Assembly (NCBI GenBank): GCA_034226945.1
Contig: CP120457.1
Location: 682,001 to 746,000, forward strand
Reading direction: 5' to 3'
Source of the DNA: Picochlorum sp. SENEW3
Lineage: Eukaryota
DNA length: 64,000 nucleotides
Shown: positions 86-30,428 of the stretch, in pieces
How the letters are laid out: each line of letters begins with the position of its first letter
Numbering within the stretch: the first letter of the stretch is position 1
Translations under genes and position numbers: made by a program
The notes under the pieces: model-generated
Seen by the model: the letters and a program-made list of their open reading frames with translations, nothing else
The model's database searches: none
What the model was told of the DNA's origin: nothing

Positions 86-793
86 CGCCCAGTTGCCAAC
101 ACCTCTTCCAGAAGAAACGTATCTGCCAAGGCTGAGAGCCGCCCAATCTGGTACCCAGGAAACGAGGCTGAGGTCCCAGAGTACCTTGATGGAACCCTTG
201 CTGGAGATTTCGGATTTGATCCTCTAGGATTGGGATCTTCTCCAGAGCAGCTCGCATGGAATGTCCAGGCTGAATTGATCCATGGACGCCTTGCTATGAC
301 TGCTGTTGCCGGTATTTTGTACACCTCTGTCGCTCACTCTGCTGGAGCTGATGTGCCAGAGTGGTATGAGGCCGGAAAGGTCTACATGGACAAGAACCCA
401 GAGGTTTCCTTCGGAGCTCTTGTGTGGACCACTATCGCTCTCTCTGGATGGGTTGAGTTCAAGCGTCTTCAGGACATCAGAAACCCAGGATCTCAGGGAG
501 ATGGATCCTTCTTGGGAATCACCGATGACTTCAAGGGTGTGTCCAACGGATACCCAGGAGGAAAGTACTTTGATCCAATGGGACTCTCCCGTGGAGACGA
601 AGCTAAATACGCCGAATACAAGGAGAAGGAGGTTAAGAACGGACGCCTTGCCATGGTTGCTTTCCTCGGATTCGCCGCCCAGTATGCCGCCACAGGAAAG
701 GGACCAATTGACAACTTGGCTGCCCACTTGGCTGACCCAGCCCACGCCAACTTTGTCCACAACGGTATCTCCGTGCCATTTATTTCCAACTAA
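86..793 (+). CDS. LHCA7: Photosystem I light-harvesting chlorophyll a/b protein (LHCA7-like), 5'-partial; first exon lies upstream of the window
   Basis: Motifs GDFGFDPLGL, ELIHGRLAM, NPGSQGDGSFLG, YPGGKYFDPMGLSRGD and KEVKNGRLAM closely match chlorophyte LHCA7 as I recall it. Acceptor ttttgcag ends at 85. Confidence 0.9.
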   Translation, partial: RPVANTSSRRNVSAKAESRPIWYPGNEAEVPEYLDGTLAGDFGFDPLGLGSSPEQLAWNVQAELIHGRLAMTAVAGILYTSVAHSAGADVPEWYEAGKVYMDKNPEVSFGALVWTTIALSGWVEFKRLQDIRNPGSQGDGSFLGITDDFKGVSNGYPGGKYFDPMGLSRGDEAKYAEYKEKEVKNGRLAMVAFLGFAAQYAATGKGPIDNLAAHLADPAHANFVHNGISVPFISN

Positions 794-855
794 TTGCTCA
801 TCAACGTATTCGAATGATTACATGGGTATAGTGTAAACAAAATTAGTATCGAGAA

Positions 856-1842
856 TCACTGCCCGATGGACCCCATCTCTCTAGCATGTTCATCAAAAAG
901 ATTTGTTGCTGCCTCTGTCAACGGATCAGACACCAGTTGCTGTGCAACCTCTGGACTAATGGTAAACGTGTTACACCCCTGCGTCGCCAGTTGTGCAATC
1001 TCATCCGCACTTCGAATAGACGCAACAAGCAATCTCACCTCCCCGGAACACTCCGTGGACATGTCAATAATCCCCTGCATGGCTGCAACATCACTCACAG
1101 CATCCTTCCCAGCATCCCCCATCCTTCCAAAATACGGAGCCACATAATGTGCTCCCACCGACAGCGCTGTAATAACCTGATGTACACTATATACCGCCGT
1201 AAATGTCACTGGCACACCGTCATTCACCAATCGCTTTGCAGTCTGAATTCCTTCCATCGTAATGGGCACTTTGACAACAACTCGGGTATCCAACTCTGCC
1301 AAATCCAACGCACACGAATACATCTCCGCAACAGTATCCCCCCATGCCTGCAATTGAAGCTCTTGTATATCCAATTCAAACGCGTGCCGCGTCAACTGCC
1401 TGATCGACGGCAGCGTGCAGTGCACCCCACTGCGTTTCAGCAGTGTTGGGTTTGTTGTACACCCATAAAACATCCCCGTATCAGCCCACTTTTTCATCTC
1501 CTGAATATCAGCACTATCGAGATACAGTCTCATACTTGGATCATTCTCCCCCTCCACAAGCTCATCCCCATCAAACACATATGTTGCAAACTCATCCTCA
1601 TCCTCATCTTCCTGCTCATCTTCTCCAAACTCTTCCCCATCCATGGACGACCGCATCATCGTCAACGTCTGCCTTCTGAGGCCATCCGTGTACCTTGTAC
1701 TACCGTATATCCTTCCCAGAATACCACACCCCGTCGATACGACGTGCTTCTCTGGTACTACCAAGGACGAAGCATGTAGATTCTTTGACAGTCTCAGAGG
1801 CACCCTTGTTGATGGAACAGCAACAGAGGGTATCATTGCCAT
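856..1842 (-). CDS. Transaldolase-family protein with fructose-6-phosphate aldolase (FSA)-type signature, N-terminal transit peptide and acidic linker
   Basis: MRLYLDSAD, GCTTNPT, VVKVP (Schiff-base Lys), TAVY, VAPYFGR and ASIRS; about 100 aa N-terminal extension. Confidence 0.88.
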   Translation of the reverse strand: MAMIPSVAVPSTRVPLRLSKNLHASSLVVPEKHVVSTGCGILGRIYGSTRYTDGLRRQTLTMMRSSMDGEEFGEDEQEDEDEDEFATYVFDGDELVEGENDPSMRLYLDSADIQEMKKWADTGMFYGCTTNPTLLKRSGVHCTLPSIRQLTRHAFELDIQELQLQAWGDTVAEMYSCALDLAELDTRVVVKVPITMEGIQTAKRLVNDGVPVTFTAVYSVHQVITALSVGAHYVAPYFGRMGDAGKDAVSDVAAMQGIIDMSTECSGEVRLLVASIRSADEIAQLATQGCNTFTISPEVAQQLVSDPLTEAATNLFDEHAREMGSIGQ

Positions 1843-25677: not shown

Positions 25678-26559
25678 ATGTCGACTCCTTTGGAATTACG
25701 CAACTGGCGGAAAGGCGCTCAGGTGAGAGGAGTTGTCTTTGTCTTTTGCTTTTTCAATTGTTGCAGTATCGTCTGCATTGATGATGAGTATGCGTCACTT
25801 TATTGTTGTGCAGAGATCTCTGAGGTTGTTATTTAATGGCATGGTCAAGGCGTTGGGTGAATGGAAGGTGGGCTGAGCAGGCATTTTATGTGCCTGTATT
25901 CCTGTGCTCCTGTCTCATCAATATAACAATAATATCATCTGTGCAGGCTGGCGTGGCGCAAGGAAAGATATTGACGACAGATATCGCCAATCTTATTCTC
26001 GAATATCGGTATGACATCATACCTATTGGAGCACCAGGACGGAAACAAGCGACGATACTGTATGGATGTGTGCAGGTGTATTGAGAAGGATGCGGCGCTC
26101 ATGGATTCATTACCTTTGGATGCACGATCGATATTCCAGTCAAGGTATACGATGAAGCTGCAGCGAAAGCTAGATTCTTTAAGGATGATTGTTGAGGCGT
26201 TGGCTAATGCGTGTGCGTCCATGTCAAAGGCACTAGAGGATTTTAAAACCATCCTCCTGTGTGATGATGAATCAGATACGCATCTGGGGGATCCCCGCCT
26301 CGACATGGCTATTTGTACGAGTCTGACGTTTCGACAGATTTCTCTTCTATTTGATGATATCGTGGAAAAGTATCAGAGAGAGCTTGGCATCAAGCAAAAG
26401 ATTTTGGATGATTTTTGTAATGATGGCCAGCATGATGAGGCATTTTATCAGGTGCATATCACTGCCTGGATGACGGATGTGGAAATAGATTCAAACCGTG
26501 TACAACATGTGATGAGAGACGTTGCATTAGATGCTGGGATGCCATATAATAATGAATAG
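25678..26559 (+). CDS. Uncharacterised helical protein, 4 exons (possibly C1orf109/AIRIM-like)
   Basis: Three GT-AG introns splice into one frame: MSTPLELRNWRKGAQ|RSLR..EWK|AGVAQ..EYR|CIEKD...AWMTD. The family assignment is a weak recollection. Confidence 0.65.
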
Positions 26560-26614
26560 AATAAGATTATTATTATTGAATTGTGCTGAGCGTGACTGTA
26601 CCCTCGCTGTAAGG
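26407..26614 (+). repeat. Direct repeat, copy 1 (~208 bp)
   Basis: Identical to 28887-29102 except T5 vs T10, one G/C substitution and one ATT unit. Confidence 0.97.
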
Positions 26615-26739
26615 CATTGCTAGTTGACTGAAAAACAGAGATCACCACAGTAGATGCAAAAACTGAGATTCAACAATGCTGTCTGAAGGTAACCAGTAGA
26701 TGGTCACTTGAAAGGATGGATATAAACTTTATGCTAGGC

Positions 26740-26904
26740 TTACAGTTGAGTTACCTTGAAGCCACTGACATATGTTGTGCCACCATCATTGTCTGCAGCA
26801 ATCCCGCAGTAGTGGTTTCCTGAGAAAGATTCAGCCAAGGTTATATCTGATAGTACCGTTCCTTCCTGATCCCAATCATTTTGTCCCAGTGCAGATACAT
26901 CATC
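26740..26904 (-). pseudogene. Relic C-terminal coding fragment of a probable secreted protein
   Basis: Reads DDVSALGQNDWDQEGTVLSDITLAESFSGNHYCGIAADNDGGTTYVSGFKVTQL*, with an in-frame TAA immediately upstream and no start codon. Confidence 0.4.
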
Positions 26905-27205
26905 TTATCCTTTGCGTGTGGATGCGGGGACTACCTGTTCCAAATGTCCTCATCCTTGTTTGTTGACTGCTCCGATGCCGGCATTGGTCTCTGGTCCCTC
27001 TCTCTCGATAGCACGTGGCCTTGAACTTGGGGTGAGTATTCTAATAGGATTGCAGCACAGAATAACTGCCTAACTCCATATATATACGGGCAGAGTTCAA
27101 ACGTGGATGGTAGCCAACTCTCTGCATCTGACTCTACATGGATAATGATGCGTGTATTCCACAGGCCAAGCTCTAGCAATACTCAGTATAAGATAACACT
27201 TGAGT

Positions 27206-28410
27206 CTATTGGAACGTCAGGTCCACAAGGCCACTCGTACCACTGGAGTATGACGAAATAATGACGTAGTAATCGGTATCTTGGGTCACAGTCACATCAA
27301 GCTTACTCTGATAACCGCAAGAATCGTCGTTCTCTGTGCATGAGCAAGTGCTCGTCCCAGATGTGCATGATACGATGAACAAGTACGTGTCCCACGTCGT
27401 GCTAGGCATGTCGCATGTGTTCACACTTACGGTCTGTTCAATTGGTAGATTCATCACCCGTCTCACAATCTTGTAGTACGAGCTGTCGCTTAGCCTGTAA
27501 TTTGAACAGGCAGAGACAAATGCTTGAGGAAGCCCACCGGTGACTCCATCACTCAATTCAAATGTCTGCGACGTGAATGGCAAGTTACCAATCGTCAATT
27601 GCTCAATCACTTCCGAGAATGGTGGCGGTGGCGGTGGGCTTGGTGGTGGAGGTGGAGGTGGCGGGCTTGGTGGAGGCGGTGGCGGACTTGGTGGTGGTGG
27701 GCTCGGTGGGGGAGGTGGACTGCGCCTGCTAACCACCCCTTCTGCCCAATCATCTACGCTGCTCATATCTTCGCATATGAGTTTGCCGGACCAAAAGTTG
27801 CTGCTCCGAGTAAGCCTCAGAGACTGACGAGCAGACAACAAAGTACAGACACTTGTCAGCCGGTTAAACATGAATGCCTCGCACTTTCTATCTGCAACGA
27901 GTATTCCTGATGTCATGGGGCAATGGCTGTTTATATCTAGAGAGCAATCTGTGTCCAGAGCTTGTCGCGTGTCATCCGTCAACCTCCAATTTAAGAGACA
28001 GGCATCCGCACATCCAGCCAGACTTCCATGCCCTGGCCTGTCCAGCTTGTACACAGCAATTATGTCACCATCTCGATACATGCTGCAGAGAACCAAACAC
28101 CCGAATGATACCATGAGCCATGAATATATATAATTATACACAGAGCAAATCATCCACCCTCGACACACCTCTTCCTCTGGTTGTATTTAACAATTTGTCT
28201 CCGAAGATTTCGGAGAGCTGGTTGGTCAGAGACTGTGCTGTCAAAGCACATCCCACCCAGCGTTGACTCTCTCTCTACGGATTCCAAAGATGTAGCATGT
28301 GTTCCTATCACGAAATGTGCCCATACTAGGAGAAGGATTGGAAACAGAAGAGCGCTCTTTGGGGACAACAACCAGTGACAGGCAATGCTCGTGCTCATTT
28401 GTATGCGCAT
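27206..28410 (-). CDS. Secreted protein: signal/TM segment, PAN/apple-like domain, Ser-Pro repeat stalk, C-terminal beta-rich domain; intron 28083-28168
   Basis: ALLFPILLLVWAHFVIG; GDI...CADAC...CEAFMF....CTL; (SPPPP)n; TC...WDTYL...NDDSC. Start ATG is uncertain (28458, 28410 or 28398). Confidence 0.75.
27620..27720. repeat. Coding (GGT/GGC/GGA)n repeat encoding SPPPP units
   Basis: Visible G-rich triplet repeat on the + strand. Confidence 0.9.
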
Positions 28411-28886
28411 ACTATAGTACATGGCCTCGTTATCAAACGACCCAATGGGTATACCCAATGGGTATACTTAGCGATTTTACTCGAATAAATGGTGTTTGCA
28501 CGTCGGGTGGCTTTCCAAGGAGAAGATTCTCTTCTTACCGCTATTACGAGTCCGTCACGTAATAGCGCTACATAATCCTTGCCTATGCGCGGACCTTTCT
28601 CCTCTTGCAATAGCGCGAGACCAATGGCATCAAATTGAACGAATACTTAAAGGATATTTTTATCAAGAGAACGTATCGATTAAATATGAAGGTTGCCAAT
28701 GTCTGCACTGAGCAGTGATCCATCGCGAGCAGGGAGTTTCATTGAAAACAGACAGTCGGCCCTCCACTACTTGTTTTTTATTTTTAAATCCTAGTTCGGT
28801 ATGAATATGTCATACTATATAACATTCTACTTAGTACTATGTAGTATACACAATGTCCCGCCAATGGGCGCACACACATGAATGCT

Positions 28887-29102
28887 GATGATTTTTTTTT
28901 TGTAATGATGGCCAGCATGATGAGGCATTTTATCAGGTGCATATCACTGCCTGGATGACCGATGTGGAAATAGATTCAAACCGTGTACAACATGTGATGA
29001 GAGACGTTGCATTAGATGCTGGGATGCCATATAATAATGAATAGAATAAGATTATTATTATTATTGAATTGTGCTGAGCGTGACTGTACCCTCGCTGTAA
29101 GG
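28887..29102 (+). repeat. Direct repeat, copy 2 (~216 bp)
   Basis: Matches 26407-26614. It holds an orphan copy of the upstream gene's 3' end and the true 3' end of RsfS. Confidence 0.97.
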
Positions 29103-30287
29103 AATCGCCACCTTGGTGACATTTGAACTCTCCTCGTCGCTCCAAAGACTCTCCAAGTCGTATTCAGACCTCACATCTTCATGGAATACATGGACAACAA
29201 CGGATCCTGCATCAATCACAAGCCAATCTGGGTTGGCATCATCTCTTCCCTCAATGCTTGGAGCAACACCTGGAGCCACCTCCTGGCATCGCTTTTTCAA
29301 CTCATGCAACACAGCCGATGCAAGCATATATACCATTTGATGCGAGCGACCTGATGCAATGATCATGTAATCTGTAAAAGAGCACTGCTGTCGAACATCA
29401 ATGATCATGACATTGCCAGCTCTGGCATCTACAAGCAGTTGTGCAACTTCATGTGGGCTGGAAAACACTTCAGAGAAGATACTACGAGGCAACGTCGCTT
29501 CTTCCTGCGACTGTCGCAACACCTCGTCCGTGACTGGCGTCTGAATACCACCACTCTGAATGTCTTTTAATTTGCCAAACTTGACAATCTGCTTTCTTTC
29601 AGCAACCCCATGCCCCAAATTGGAGGCCACCTCTGCCACATTTTTATTTTCCTCTTCTTTTCTAATATCATCTAAAATCCGACTCACCAATGCGGCCTTA
29701 TTTCCCCGACTGTCAGAACCAGAAACCTCCAGAATATCCCGCAATCCCTTCACTTTCAATTTCATCAAGGCAGTTTTCGTGATATTAACATGCTCTTTCC
29801 CATGCACACTCTGCAATTCCTCTTCCACAAGACTCTTAATACTAGTATCAGCTGCGTCCCTACAGAACACACAAACAGTCGTCATTCACAACCCCATGTG
29901 TATCTTTTCCCCTCAACCAACCCACCTCTGCAATCTTTCGTGCATCTCCATGATCGCCGCCATCTCAGGATTCACTCGTTTCATATACTCGATACTTGTA
30001 TCATTCAAATGACTGGTTCCGACCTTGGTCGTCATACCCACTGGACCGGATTCCTGCTCAGAGGCAGGCTTCTCCTCCTCCTGTTGGGACAATCCACGGA
30101 CAGAGAACGGGACCCGAGGCTCTATTCCATGAGTCGTTCGTAATTTTATCCCATAATCTTTCCTCTTAATGAGTTGTTGGGGTGTACTGGTCCTGTTAGA
30201 GACAGAGAAGCACTCGGAGGATTCCAACCGCAACCAACTTTGGATGGTTCGCCGGAACAGCGACCCTTCTCTTGCTATTCTCTTCAT
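29061..30287 (-). CDS. RSFS: Ribosome silencing factor RsfS/Iojap (mitochondrial-type) with a SAP domain; intron 29860-29925
   Basis: IDVRQQCSFTDYMIIASGRS, WLVIDAGSVVVHVF...R..YDLESLW; SAP-like LMKLKVKGLRDIL...G....GNKAALVSRI. Confidence 0.9.
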
Positions 30288-30428
30288 CTTGAACTACTAG
30301 TAATAAAAAATTATGTATGCCTTTGCTGTGACGGATTCTTTCCATACTGCATTGAATCGAATTCCGAACGCTTGCGGCATCATCAAGCCTTTTCTTCTGA
30401 ATGTGCGAATTTCTTCTTTACACGATGA

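What the first reader, a model, noticed from the sequence alone, without database searches (positions are those of the whole stretch)
26407..29102. 2.3 kb gene-carrying insertion flanked by a ~210 bp direct repeat that leaves two convergent genes intact
Seen: 26407-26614 and 28887-29102 differ only by T5/T10, one SNP and one ATT unit. The repeat spans the last ~50 codons of the + strand gene and the last ~14 codons of RsfS, whose stops lie ~13-16 nt apart within each copy. Copy 1 completes the + gene and ends 2 nt after a TGTAA (26608-26612). Copy 2 completes RsfS. Inference: foreign DNA entered a locus with no free intergenic space and produced a very long target duplication, so each gene kept its 3' end. 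Typical TSDs are only about 2-20 bp, and no transposase, RT or TIR is visible. Repair-mediated capture, circle integration or an unrecognised non-autonomous element are all possible. The repeats could also allow clean recombinational excision, making the cargo an on/off cassette.
Basis: partly seen in the sequence, partly recalled or inferred. Interest (0 to 1): 0.85.

Follow-up and report, generated by a model that had tools for sequence, protein, structure and literature searches.

The report
Gene insertion with 208-bp target duplication
In a tiny green alga, one whole gene landed exactly where two tail-to-tail genes meet, and about 210 bases of the landing site were copied so that both neighbours stayed whole; this is a clean eukaryotic example of a rare but already described way of gaining a gene without a jumping-gene enzyme.

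Summary
26407-26614 and 28887-29102 are a ~99% identical direct repeat and the only long repeat in the 64-kb window. The window is nuclear DNA of a Picochlorum green alga. Its proteins are 100% identical to proteins named Picochlorum sp. SENEW3.

The repeat holds the last 50 codons of an orphan gene A (+) and the last 13 codons plus the stop of RsfS/iojap (-). A metagenome contig of a relative (L001, ~81-90% nt identity) carries the uninterrupted site. There, gene A and RsfS converge with 5 nt between their stops, and one stretch aligns to both copies.

Independent k-mer contigs from other runs carry the junctions. In one run the insert has flank depth and the repeat about 1.8x that depth.

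The 2,272-bp insert is one complete native gene unit, not foreign DNA. It encodes a signal peptide, a PAN-like module, a proline-rich linker and a PPC-like domain, and its GC matches the surroundings. It has no transposase, RT, terminal repeats, tRNA or poly(A) tail.

Best reading: insertion with long target duplication through break repair. This is known in prokaryotes, and this scan has noted it there repeatedly. The mechanism and the donor locus are not resolved.

The parts
25678..26559 (+). Gene A: an orphan gene of about 214 aa in several exons (last exon 26076-26559; the intron before it is 26009-26075). It has no Pfam family and is found only in close Picochlorum relatives.
   Evidence: tblastn of P0088 (named Picochlorum sp. 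SENEW3 hypothetical protein) is 100% identical over 26074-26556. There were 4 homologues among 21 candidates, and the C-terminus ...DAGMPYNNE is conserved. No Pfam hit. SNP-dense 26021-26057 in other strains fits an intron.
26407..26614 (.). Repeat copy 1 (possibly extending to 26620). It completes gene A (CDS end, stop, TGTAA) and carries a dead copy of the last 13 RsfS codons plus the stop.
26608..26612 (+). TGTAA, the candidate poly(A) signal of gene A, 49 nt after its stop. It lies antisense to the conserved Pro-Tyr codons of RsfS. That UGUAA is the green-algal poly(A) signal is recalled knowledge.
   Evidence: Motif scan. Conserved in L001 at 773-777. No RNA evidence.
26615..28886 (.). 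Inserted segment of 2,272 bp, GC 46.7%. It is one complete gene unit with its own upstream and downstream DNA.
   Evidence: Absent from L001. A single contig, 26585-28926, at 54.7x against flanks of 56.3x and 56.4x in X1. GC.
26615..27205 (-). 591 nt downstream of the cargo stop, probably its 3' UTR. A candidate poly(A) signal (TTACA on the + strand) lies at 26740-26744. A polymorphic inversion of about 283 nt (26892-27174) is seen in other strains.
   Evidence: Motif scan. ORFs here have no Pfam family. Joint 26891->27174 on opposite strands in X5 and X10.
27206..28082 (-). Cargo exon 2 including the stop: PAN-like cysteine module, proline-rich linker (27620-27727) and a C-terminal PPC-like domain.
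   Evidence: tblastn of P0001, P0003, P0004, P0008 and P0015. P0001 has a weak PAN_1 match, E 0.014. The C-terminal 137 aa have 334 representatives at E<=0.001, and 5 of the 9 tested carry PF04151 PPC.
28083..28168 (-). Cargo intron, 86 nt, GT...AG.
   Evidence: The homologue junction ...KYNQ[KR]K|SMYRDGD in P0004 and P0008. Splice sites checked.
28169..28398 (-). Cargo exon 1 with a hydrophobic, signal-peptide-like N-terminus. The start is probably the ATG at 28398; in-frame ATGs at 28410 and 28422 are also possible.
   Evidence: tblastn of P0004 residues 10-82 onto 28371-28153. ATGs checked. The signal peptide was judged by eye and not tested.
28399..28886 (-). 488 nt upstream of the cargo (GC 41.8%), the presumed promoter. 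It evolves fast among strains and holds a 13-nt tandem pair at 28440-28465.
   Evidence: Indels and a 77-nt replacement in X10 and X16 (tables 4 and 5).
28887..29102 (.). Repeat copy 2 (possibly extending to 29108). It completes RsfS (last 13 codons plus stop, and the 3' flank) and carries a dead copy of the last 50 codons of gene A.
   Evidence: A 206-nt contig at 99x in X1. tblastn of P0088 residues 167-214 onto 28898-29041.
29061..30287 (-). RsfS/iojap gene with a SAP domain. It has two exons (about 30287-29925 and about 29858-29061) and encodes about 385 aa.
   Evidence: Pfam RsfS 1.4e-26 and SAP 1e-4. P0090-P0093. tblastn.

Best explanation
This is a real, lineage-specific, DNA-level insertion of one complete native gene unit (2,272 bp: upstream region, two-exon gene for a secreted-looking PAN-like/proline-rich/PPC-like protein, and 3' region). 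It landed where two convergent genes abut: orphan gene A and the organellar ribosome-silencing factor RsfS/iojap. About 208-214 bp of the target was duplicated, so copy 1 keeps gene A whole and copy 2 keeps RsfS whole. I think the most likely route is repair of a staggered double-strand break. In that model, two nicks about 200 nt apart on opposite strands give long complementary overhangs. Both overhangs are filled in, and a free genomic fragment is captured by end joining. No element-encoded enzyme is involved. The unusual length of the duplication is best explained by survivorship. In the uninterrupted site only 5 nt separate the stops, and each gene's candidate poly(A) signal lies inside the other gene. 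An insertion that duplicated less would therefore have cut one gene. Shown: the repeat, its sharp boundaries, the junctions in independent data, the empty site in a relative, the intact cargo gene, and the lack of mobility genes. Inferred: the break geometry, the fill-in, the capture, and the selective filter.
For: Repeat and boundaries. Empty site: L001 was the 1 locus confirmed out of 260 pattern matches. It has gene A at 259..741 (+) and RsfS at 747..1604 (-). L001 136-740 aligns to window 25940-26548, and L001 604-1963 aligns to 28898-30290. The repeat corresponds to L001 598-779/785, which holds TTACA at 650 and TGTAA at 773. Not an assembly artefact: in X1 the insert contig 26585-28926 is at 54.7x, the flanks are at 56.3x and 56.4x, and the 206-nt repeat contig is at 99x. 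The right junction is bridged in 3 of 4 runs (X1 record 2, X10 record 15 at 28470-29655, X16 record 20 at 27705-28927). X10 links insert, copy 2 and RsfS in one contig. The window's cargo and RsfS sequences also stand together in one public protein model (P0090). Native cargo: N-terminal module 80-88% identical to Picochlorum paralogues, GC 46.7%, and 0 relatives confirmed in viral contigs. Not a transposon or retrocopy: 15 of the 17 ORFs of 50 aa or more that overlap the insert were scanned, and none hit a transposase, RT or integrase. None of the 9 inverted-repeat pairs lies at the insert ends. No tRNA and no Rfam match at E<=0.1. An 86-nt intron is retained. The insert termini are at single-copy depth in X1. 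Mechanistic precedent: paired nicks giving 46-nt overhangs yield tandem duplications by fill-in plus end joining in mouse ES cells (PMC5730883, passages read). Recombinase-free insertion with long target duplication, with repeats from 46 to about 420 bp, is documented in bacteria (PMC2853133, passages read). Suggestive only: in Picochlorum sp. BPE23 the RsfS and gene A proteins carry adjacent locus tags in two assemblies (M9435_000241/000242 and M9434_003025/003026), and RsfS there has its normal end. Contig lengths of 1,911 and 2,024 nt are shared between the gene A and RsfS cluster lists and are too short to hold the insert.
Against: Nothing shows the break geometry. The donor locus is unknown because no whole genome is held, so microhomology at the junctions cannot be scored. 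A 200-nt overhang is several times longer than the 46-nt overhangs studied in PMC5730883. Only one empty-site locus was actually read as DNA (L001). The BPE23 case and the short-contig cases rest on locus tags and contig lengths. An empty site could in principle be a clean secondary loss by recombination between the repeats. The left junction is carried by a listed contig in only 1 of 4 runs (X1), and with only 30 letters on the repeat side if the boundary is set at 26614 (36 if set at 26620). X1 may be the sample the window was assembled from, so it is not independent. Filled alleles in X10 and X16 differ from the window by roughly 2-4% in the insert. The two copies differ at only 3 sites, which needs either constraint or gene conversion.
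Confidence: 0.6

Rival explanations
1. Replicative template switching (MMBIR/FoSTeS type; mechanism recalled, no paper read). A nascent strand left the template at the right end of the repeat, copied 2.27 kb at another locus, and returned about 210 nt upstream, re-copying the repeat.
For: It gives exactly the same product, R-insert-R with sharp boundaries. The cargo belongs to a family whose N-terminal module stands at 2-4.5x depth in X1 (27710-28379). Related templates therefore exist in the genome.
Against: The insert's unique parts (26638-27575 and 28380-28781) are at single-copy depth in X1, 54.7x. No donor copy at >=90% identity remains in that sample. Contigs cannot exclude a diverged or lost donor.
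Confidence: 0.17
2. Two steps. First a simple tandem duplication of the ~210-bp overlap zone separated the two gene ends. Later a fragment was inserted between the two copies.
For: Tandem duplications are the common outcome of staggered breaks (PMC5730883). The junction between the copies would be the only dispensable spot.
Against: Both copies are full length, so the second event would have had to hit the junction exactly. No tandem allele was seen in L001 or in the 4 runs laid.
Confidence: 0.07
3. Homologous (Campbell-type, ends-in) integration of a circular or linear molecule that already carried the ~210-bp segment. One example is a cassette excised from another filled chromosome and re-integrated into an empty one.
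For: A single crossover of a circle holding R gives R-insert-R. The 208-bp repeats could release such a circle. An earlier scan note (e1-5012695) proposed this for a bacterial case.
Against: It does not explain the first origin of a molecule joining R to the cargo. No circle-specific evidence is available. The k-mer contigs cannot tell a circle from the integrated form, except that X10 links insert, R and RsfS.
Confidence: 0.05
5. Assembly or haplotype artefact: the true locus is single copy, and the insert was wrongly placed between two copies of a collapsed or duplicated allele.
For: In a k=31 graph an exact 206-nt repeat cannot be resolved. Two of the three differences between the copies are indels in simple runs, a type of difference that long-read assemblies can get wrong.
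Against: Both junction sequences exist in reads of X1. The right junction is also in X10 and X16. Repeat depth is about 1.8x and insert depth 1x. X10 has one contig running from the insert through copy 2 into RsfS.
Confidence: 0.03

Closest known systems
Insertion with long target duplication of restriction-modification gene complexes in bacteria (Furuta, Abe & Kobayashi 2010, PMC2853133, passages read; Nobusato et al. 2000 seen only as its reference 37 and in earlier scan notes)
   Same: A gene unit under 20 kb with no integrase or transposase is flanked by direct repeats far longer than transposon duplications (46 to about 420 bp there, 208-216 bp here). The repeats align to a single-copy stretch in a related genome without the insert. 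In some of their cases the target overlaps the 3' end of a gene.
   Different: Those cases are prokaryotic, involve RM systems, and occur mostly in naturally competent species. This case is in the nuclear genome of a eukaryotic alga. The cargo is a native spliced gene for a secreted-looking protein, and the enzymology is probably different (eukaryotic end joining).
Tandem duplications from repair of staggered breaks or paired nicks (Schimmel et al. 2017, PMC5730883, passages read; Vaughn & Bennetzen 2014 and Schiml et al. 2016 seen only as citations there; Pol alpha-primase/CST paper PMC8355091 seen as listing and abstract start only)
   Same: The sequence between two nicks on opposite strands ends up duplicated after fill-in and end joining. 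No element-encoded enzyme is involved.
   Different: The experimental overhangs were 46 nt and the products were small tandem duplications. Here the duplication is about 210 bp and a complete 2.27-kb gene lies between the copies.
Classical transposon or retroelement target-site duplication
   Same: Direct repeats of target sequence flank the inserted DNA.
   Different: There is no transposase or RT, no terminal repeats, no poly(A) tail, single-copy termini, and a duplication 10-100 times longer than usual.
Earlier notes of this scan on prokaryotic cassettes at convergent gene ends (e1-5012695 with 121 bp, e1-785184 with 84 bp, e1-5126922 with 437 bp, e1-2273728 with 59 bp)
   Same: The geometry is the same: a cargo of one or a few genes sits exactly at the overlapping 3' ends of two convergent genes, and the flanking duplication regenerates both gene ends.
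   Different: All of those are in bacteria or archaea and are AI notes that I did not check. This one is in a eukaryote.

Membership tests
Insertion with long target duplication (criteria of PMC2853133) | Direct repeats longer than 30 bp flank the insert | tested here: met
   208 and 216 nt at about 99% identity.
Insertion with long target duplication (criteria of PMC2853133) | Both repeats align to one single-copy stretch in a related genome that lacks the insert | tested here: met
   L001 598-785 aligns to both copies, and the flanks are collinear on either side. This rests on one locus read as DNA.
Insertion with long target duplication (criteria of PMC2853133) | Insert under 20 kb with no integrase, transposase or other mobile element | tested here: met
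   The insert is 2,272 bp. 15 of 17 ORFs of 50 aa or more were scanned and none hit a mobility family. No tRNA. No terminal inverted repeat.
Insertion with long target duplication (criteria of PMC2853133) | The repeat sequence occurs nowhere else in the genome | tested here: inconclusive
   It is the only long repeat in the 64-kb window, and the repeat contig is at about 1.8x flank depth in X1. No whole genome is held.
Insertion with long target duplication (criteria of PMC2853133) | Cargo is a restriction-modification system in a prokaryote | tested here: not met
   This is a eukaryotic nuclear locus with spliced genes, and the cargo is a PAN-like/Pro-rich/PPC-like protein.
Transposable element (DNA transposon, LTR or non-LTR retroelement) | Element-encoded transposase, integrase or RT, or multi-copy non-autonomous termini | tested here: not met
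   No such Pfam family. The termini are at 54.7x, equal to flank depth, in X1.
Transposable element (DNA transposon, LTR or non-LTR retroelement) | Terminal inverted repeats, long terminal repeats or a 3' poly(A) tail | tested here: not met
   None of the 9 inverted pairs lies at the insert ends. The T-run at 28892-28901 is part of the target (5 nt, CTTTA, in L001) and varies by slippage among strains.
Processed retrocopy | Intronless copy with a poly(A) tail and no promoter of its own | tested here: not met
   An 86-nt GT-AG intron is retained, and there are 488 nt of upstream DNA.
Staggered-break repair duplication with captured DNA | Direct duplication of the stretch between two nicks, with sharp junctions and no long homology to the captured DNA | tested here: inconclusive
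   The form fits: identity drops to 28 of 67 and 24 of 58 outside the repeat. The donor is unknown, so junction microhomology cannot be scored.
Staggered-break repair duplication with captured DNA | Dependence on end-joining and fill-in enzymes | not testable with these tools
   This needs genetics in Picochlorum.
Campbell-type (ends-in) homologous integration | A circular or linear donor that carries the ~210-bp segment | not testable with these tools
   The k-mer contigs cannot distinguish a circle.
RsfS/iojap (PF02410), right-hand neighbour gene | Pfam match above the curated cut-off | tested here: met
   93 bits against a cut-off of 21.6, E 1.4e-26.
PPC domain (PF04151), cargo C-terminus | Pfam match above the curated cut-off | tested here: not met
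   No direct hit even at E<=5. Of 9 homologues tested, 5 carry PPC. In P0110 and P0115 the PPC stretch overlaps the stretch matched to the cargo (947-1012 versus 934-998, and 515-578 versus 501-566). So the C-terminus is PPC-like, but membership is not shown.

The most novel reading that the evidence does not exclude
[quoted passage not shown] In this alga the breaks would arise at the transcription-termination zone shared by the two genes: in L001 the repeat spans from about 50 nt beyond the candidate RsfS poly(A) signal to just past that of gene A. The ~210-bp repeats would then make the cargo a reversible presence/absence cassette. That could explain why SENEW3-like strains carry it while the very close strain BPE23 seems not to.
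Probability: 0.15. Interest if true: 0.75.

Novelty: new member of a known kind. Interest (0 to 1): 0.5.

Why it matters
Picoalgal genomes have almost no spare DNA, and how they gain genes is rarely seen at base-pair resolution. This locus shows one gain event with both junctions, the untouched site in a relative, and an intact cargo. It also shows that the layout this scan keeps finding in prokaryotes (cargo at convergent gene ends with a duplication that regenerates both ends) occurs in a eukaryotic nucleus. That points to a common cause, namely staggered breaks plus selection against cutting neighbours, rather than a dedicated enzyme.

Two practical points follow. The public model of the neighbouring gene (721 aa, 'Iojap-related') is probably a false fusion of RsfS with the cargo. 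And the 208-bp repeats make this locus a natural test bed for recombinational gain and loss in a transformable alga.

Tried and rejected
- **Whole genome:** none is held. I therefore could not search for a donor locus or for other cargo segments between long repeats outside the window.
- **Earlier notes:** there are none on this genome, and none resemble the cargo sequence.
- **Structure:** the AlphaFold2 model of the cargo exon-2 product, built from a 21-row alignment, was unusable (mean pLDDT 40.5, pTM 0.22). No fold search was run.
- **Domain searches on the cargo:** Pfam found no family above threshold. The Atlas gave only weak leads (best 0.80 to unnamed clusters, 0.77 to PPC-bearing clusters).
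- **Viral contigs:** 2 pattern matches, 0 confirmed.
- **tRNA and Rfam:** nothing found.
- **Uncovered stretches in read laying:** X16 lacks 26504-27575, X10 lacks 26236-26637, and X5 lacks 28648-28781. These cannot be read as absence and I draw nothing from them. Likewise, the missing copy-1 variant (G at 26476, three ATT units) among the X1 contigs may be a popped bubble. It says nothing about whether the copies are identical there.
- **Runs not laid:** shares of 0.28-0.36 in several metagenome runs resemble what an empty allele would give. The one laid (X16) carried the right junction, so I make no claim for the others.
- **Gene conversion between the copies:** considered, but not resolvable with contigs.
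- **Retrocopy, transposon and virus-borne origin:** considered and rejected (see the membership tests).
- **Literature:** searches found no description of this locus and no eukaryotic gene insertion with a target duplication of 100 bp or more at convergent gene ends. These are word searches of an open-access library, not proof of absence.
- **Not used:** Complex prediction.


Full report
**1. The observation**

The two stretches 26407-26614 and 28887-29102 are a direct repeat.
- They differ only by T5 versus T10, one substitution (26476 G / 28960 C) and one ATT unit.
- Self-BLAST of the window gives this pair (206 nt, 98.06%, E 3.5e-98). It finds only one other non-self match, 51 nt at 86%, elsewhere.
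- Outside the repeat the two copies are unrelated: 28 of 67 identical on the left and 24 of 58 on the right. The boundaries are therefore sharp.
- The right boundary may lie 6 nt further on, at 26620/29108.

**2. The organism and the neighbouring genes**

This is eukaryotic nuclear DNA.
- The neighbours include a coatomer gamma subunit, a spliced TruB and an RsfS/iojap gene with a SAP domain.
- No whole genome is held for the window.
- Gene A, RsfS and the cargo translate to sequences 100% identical over the aligned exons to proteins named Picochlorum sp. SENEW3 in the protein collection.
- The window's GC is 45.9%. That strain's genome paper reports 46.3%, a compact genome that appears repeat-poor (the authors caution that the repeat count is likely under-represented), and at least diploidy (PMC11092101, passages).

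Gene A (+, 25678-26559, several exons) is an orphan.
- It had 4 homologues among 21 candidates, all close relatives, and no Pfam family.
- Its C-terminus ...DAGMPYNNE is conserved.

RsfS (-, 30287-29061) ends ...VAIPYSEGTVTLSTIQ, and this end is conserved among the 8 homologues aligned.

Both gene ends inside the repeat are therefore ancestral parts of their genes. Copy 1 completes gene A and copy 2 completes RsfS.

**3. The empty site**

A search of metagenome contigs with the gene A alignment gave 260 pattern matches, of which 1 was confirmed: L001, 2,875 nt.
- Gene A (259..741, +) and RsfS (747..1604, -) converge with only 5 nt between their stop codons.
- BLASTN aligns L001 136-740 to window 25940-26548, and L001 604-1963 to window 28898-30290. 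Positions 604-740 therefore match both copies.
- In a three-way alignment the relative follows the copy-1 left flank (58 of 67) and the copy-2 right flank (53 of 62). It matches the insert ends no better than chance (29 of 67 and 20 of 58).
- The repeat is about 85% identical to L001 but about 99% identical between its own copies. The duplication is therefore much younger than the split from that relative.
- L001 has C at the one substituted site, and a 5-nt stretch (CTTTA) where the window has T5 and T10.

Weaker, indirect support comes from the cluster listings.
- In Picochlorum sp. BPE23 (gene A about 96% identical), RsfS has its normal end. Gene A and RsfS carry adjacent locus tags in two assemblies.
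- Contig lengths of 1,911 and 2,024 nt appear in both the gene A and RsfS cluster listings. They are too short to hold the insert.
- I did not see the DNA of any of these.

**4. Is the filled structure real?**

Contigs of four runs were laid on 25700-29700. In X1, which may be the window's own source, the pattern is what a k=31 graph gives for an exact repeat present twice around a single-copy insert.

| X1 contig | Window span | Depth |
|---|---|---|
| Left flank | ends at 26441 | 56.3x |
| Insert (one contig) | 26585-28926 | 54.7x |
| Repeat (206 nt) | 28897-29102 | 99x |
| Right flank | starts at 29073 | 56.4x |

- Equal depth of insert and flanks argues against a common empty allele in that sample.
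- The right junction is also bridged in X10 and in X16. In X10 one contig runs from 28470 through copy 2 to 29655 in RsfS. In X16 the contig covers 27705-28927 and differs from the window by 43 letters plus 32 gap letters over 1,223 positions.
- The right junction is thus bridged in 3 of 4 runs from 3 studies.
- The left junction is carried by a listed contig only in X1. It has 30 letters on the repeat side if the boundary is 26614, and 36 if it is 26620.
- No contig joins 26614 to 29103 in any of the 4 runs.
- The T-run at copy 2 is one T shorter in X10 and six shorter in X16, so the T5/T10 difference is slippage and not junction filler.

**5. The insert**

The insert (26615-28886, 2,272 bp, GC 46.7% against 45.2-46.8% around it) is one gene unit on the minus strand.
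- **Upstream region:** 488 nt.
- **Exon 1:** about 28398-28169, with a hydrophobic, signal-peptide-like start. This was judged by eye.
- **Intron:** 86 nt, GT-AG, 28168-28083.
- **Exon 2:** 28082-27206.
- **Downstream region:** 591 nt, with a candidate poly(A) signal at 26744-26740.

The protein has three parts.
- A cysteine-bearing N-terminal module is 80-88% identical to many Picochlorum paralogues whose C-termini differ (DUF285, PA14, Hint). P0001 gives a weak PAN_1 match, E 0.014.
- A PPPPSPPPP-type linker follows.
- The 137-aa C-terminal domain has 334 representatives at E<=0.001. Of 9 tested, 5 carry Pfam PPC. In P0110 and P0115 the PPC stretch overlaps the stretch matched to the cargo. 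The cargo itself has no direct PPC hit.

The best full-length relative is only 63% identical (P0001). In X1 only 27710-28379 is at raised depth (101-251x). The rest of the insert is single copy.

The cargo is therefore a native, family-derived gene and not foreign DNA, and no donor copy at >=90% identity remains in that sample.

No mobility features were found.
- 15 of the 17 ORFs of 50 aa or more that overlap the insert were scanned. None matched a transposase, RT or integrase.
- The only hit at E<=0.01 is a sub-threshold TMEM106 match on 28784-28942.
- None of the 9 inverted-repeat pairs lies at the insert ends.
- There is no tRNA, no Rfam match and no relative in viral contigs.

**6. How it most likely happened**

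The product (target, insert, target, with sharp ends, no element features and a retained intron) rules out transposition and retroposition as known. It fits 'insertion with long target duplication'.
- That class is defined in bacteria by repeats over 30 bp that align to a single-copy site in a relative, with no mobility genes in the insert. Repeats there range from 46 to about 420 bp (PMC2853133, passages).
- This scan has noted the same geometry at convergent gene ends in many prokaryotes (AI notes, unchecked).

For a eukaryote the best-supported enzymology is repair of a staggered break.
- Paired nicks that leave 46-nt overhangs give duplications of the overhang after fill-in and end joining (PMC5730883, passages).
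- Here the nicks would lie about 200 nt apart, and a free 2.27-kb genomic fragment would have been ligated between the two filled-in ends.

I propose a survivorship argument for the length of the duplication.
- In L001 each gene's candidate poly(A) signal lies inside the other gene: TTACA at 650 within gene A, and TGTAA at 773 within RsfS.
- The repeat (598-779/785) just covers both signals.
- Any shorter duplication would have cut a coding end or a signal.
- That UGUAA is the green-algal poly(A) signal is recalled knowledge, and no RNA data were seen.

The rivals are template switching during replication, a tandem duplication followed by a second insertion, homologous integration of a molecule already carrying the repeat, an unrecognised element, and an artefact. 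They are weighed in the Rival explanations section. The data here cannot separate the first two from the favoured model, because the donor locus is unknown.

**7. What stays open**

- **Polarity:** this rests on one DNA-level empty site. A clean loss by recombination between the repeats would look the same.
- **Age:** the filled alleles in X10 and X16 differ from the window by a few percent, while the copies differ at three sites. Either constraint (each copy is now the 3' end of a live gene) or gene conversion keeps the copies alike. Contigs cannot tell which.
- **Excision:** whether the repeats ever excise the cargo is untested.

**8. Verdict**

This is a clear eukaryotic member of a known but mechanistically unsolved kind of gene gain. 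It is of moderate interest.

Noticed in passing
window 30287-27209 (-): The public protein P0090 (721 aa, named 'Protein Iojap-related', Picochlorum sp. SENEW3) joins RsfS residues 1-377 to the cargo. It does so through a predicted 764-nt GT-AG intron (29089-28326) that skips the last 9 RsfS codons, repeat copy 2 and the cargo's upstream region. Relatives have a normal 385-386 aa RsfS. This is probably a mis-merged gene model caused by the insertion, though read-through transcription is not excluded.
   Followed up: partly
window 26892-27174: Contigs of X5 (39.4x) and X10 (4.8x) join 26891 to 27174 on opposite strands. Other contigs of the same runs cross 27174/27175 as in the window. This looks like a polymorphic inversion of about 283 nt just downstream of the cargo stop codon.
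   Followed up: no
window 27705-28379: Only the N-terminal module of the cargo is at 2-4.5x depth in X1. Paralogue contigs break away at 27705, 28229, 28263 and 28271. The family looks module-shuffled, with one conserved N-terminal module on different C-terminal domains (DUF285, PA14, Hint, PPC-like).
   Followed up: partly
window 29040: One X10 contig matches from 29040 rightwards into RsfS but has 255 unlike, AT-rich letters to the left. This is a third arrangement next to the RsfS 3' end in that sample and is unexplained (table 7).
   Followed up: no
window 28440-28465: A 13-nt unit stands twice in tandem in the cargo's upstream region, and X16 lacks one unit. X10 replaces 28740-28816 (77 nt) with 33 other letters. 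The upstream region evolves fast.
   Followed up: no
window 27620-27727: The proline-rich coding repeat (6 overlapping copies of a 45-nt GGT/GGC-rich unit on the + strand) varies in length among runs: a 'goes back 34' joint in X5 and loose ends at 27620-27705.
   Followed up: no
L001 1-190: The relative's contig begins with a long (GA)n-type dinucleotide run that translates as SVSV.../RDRD... It lies upstream of gene A and has no counterpart in the BLAST alignment to the window.
   Followed up: no
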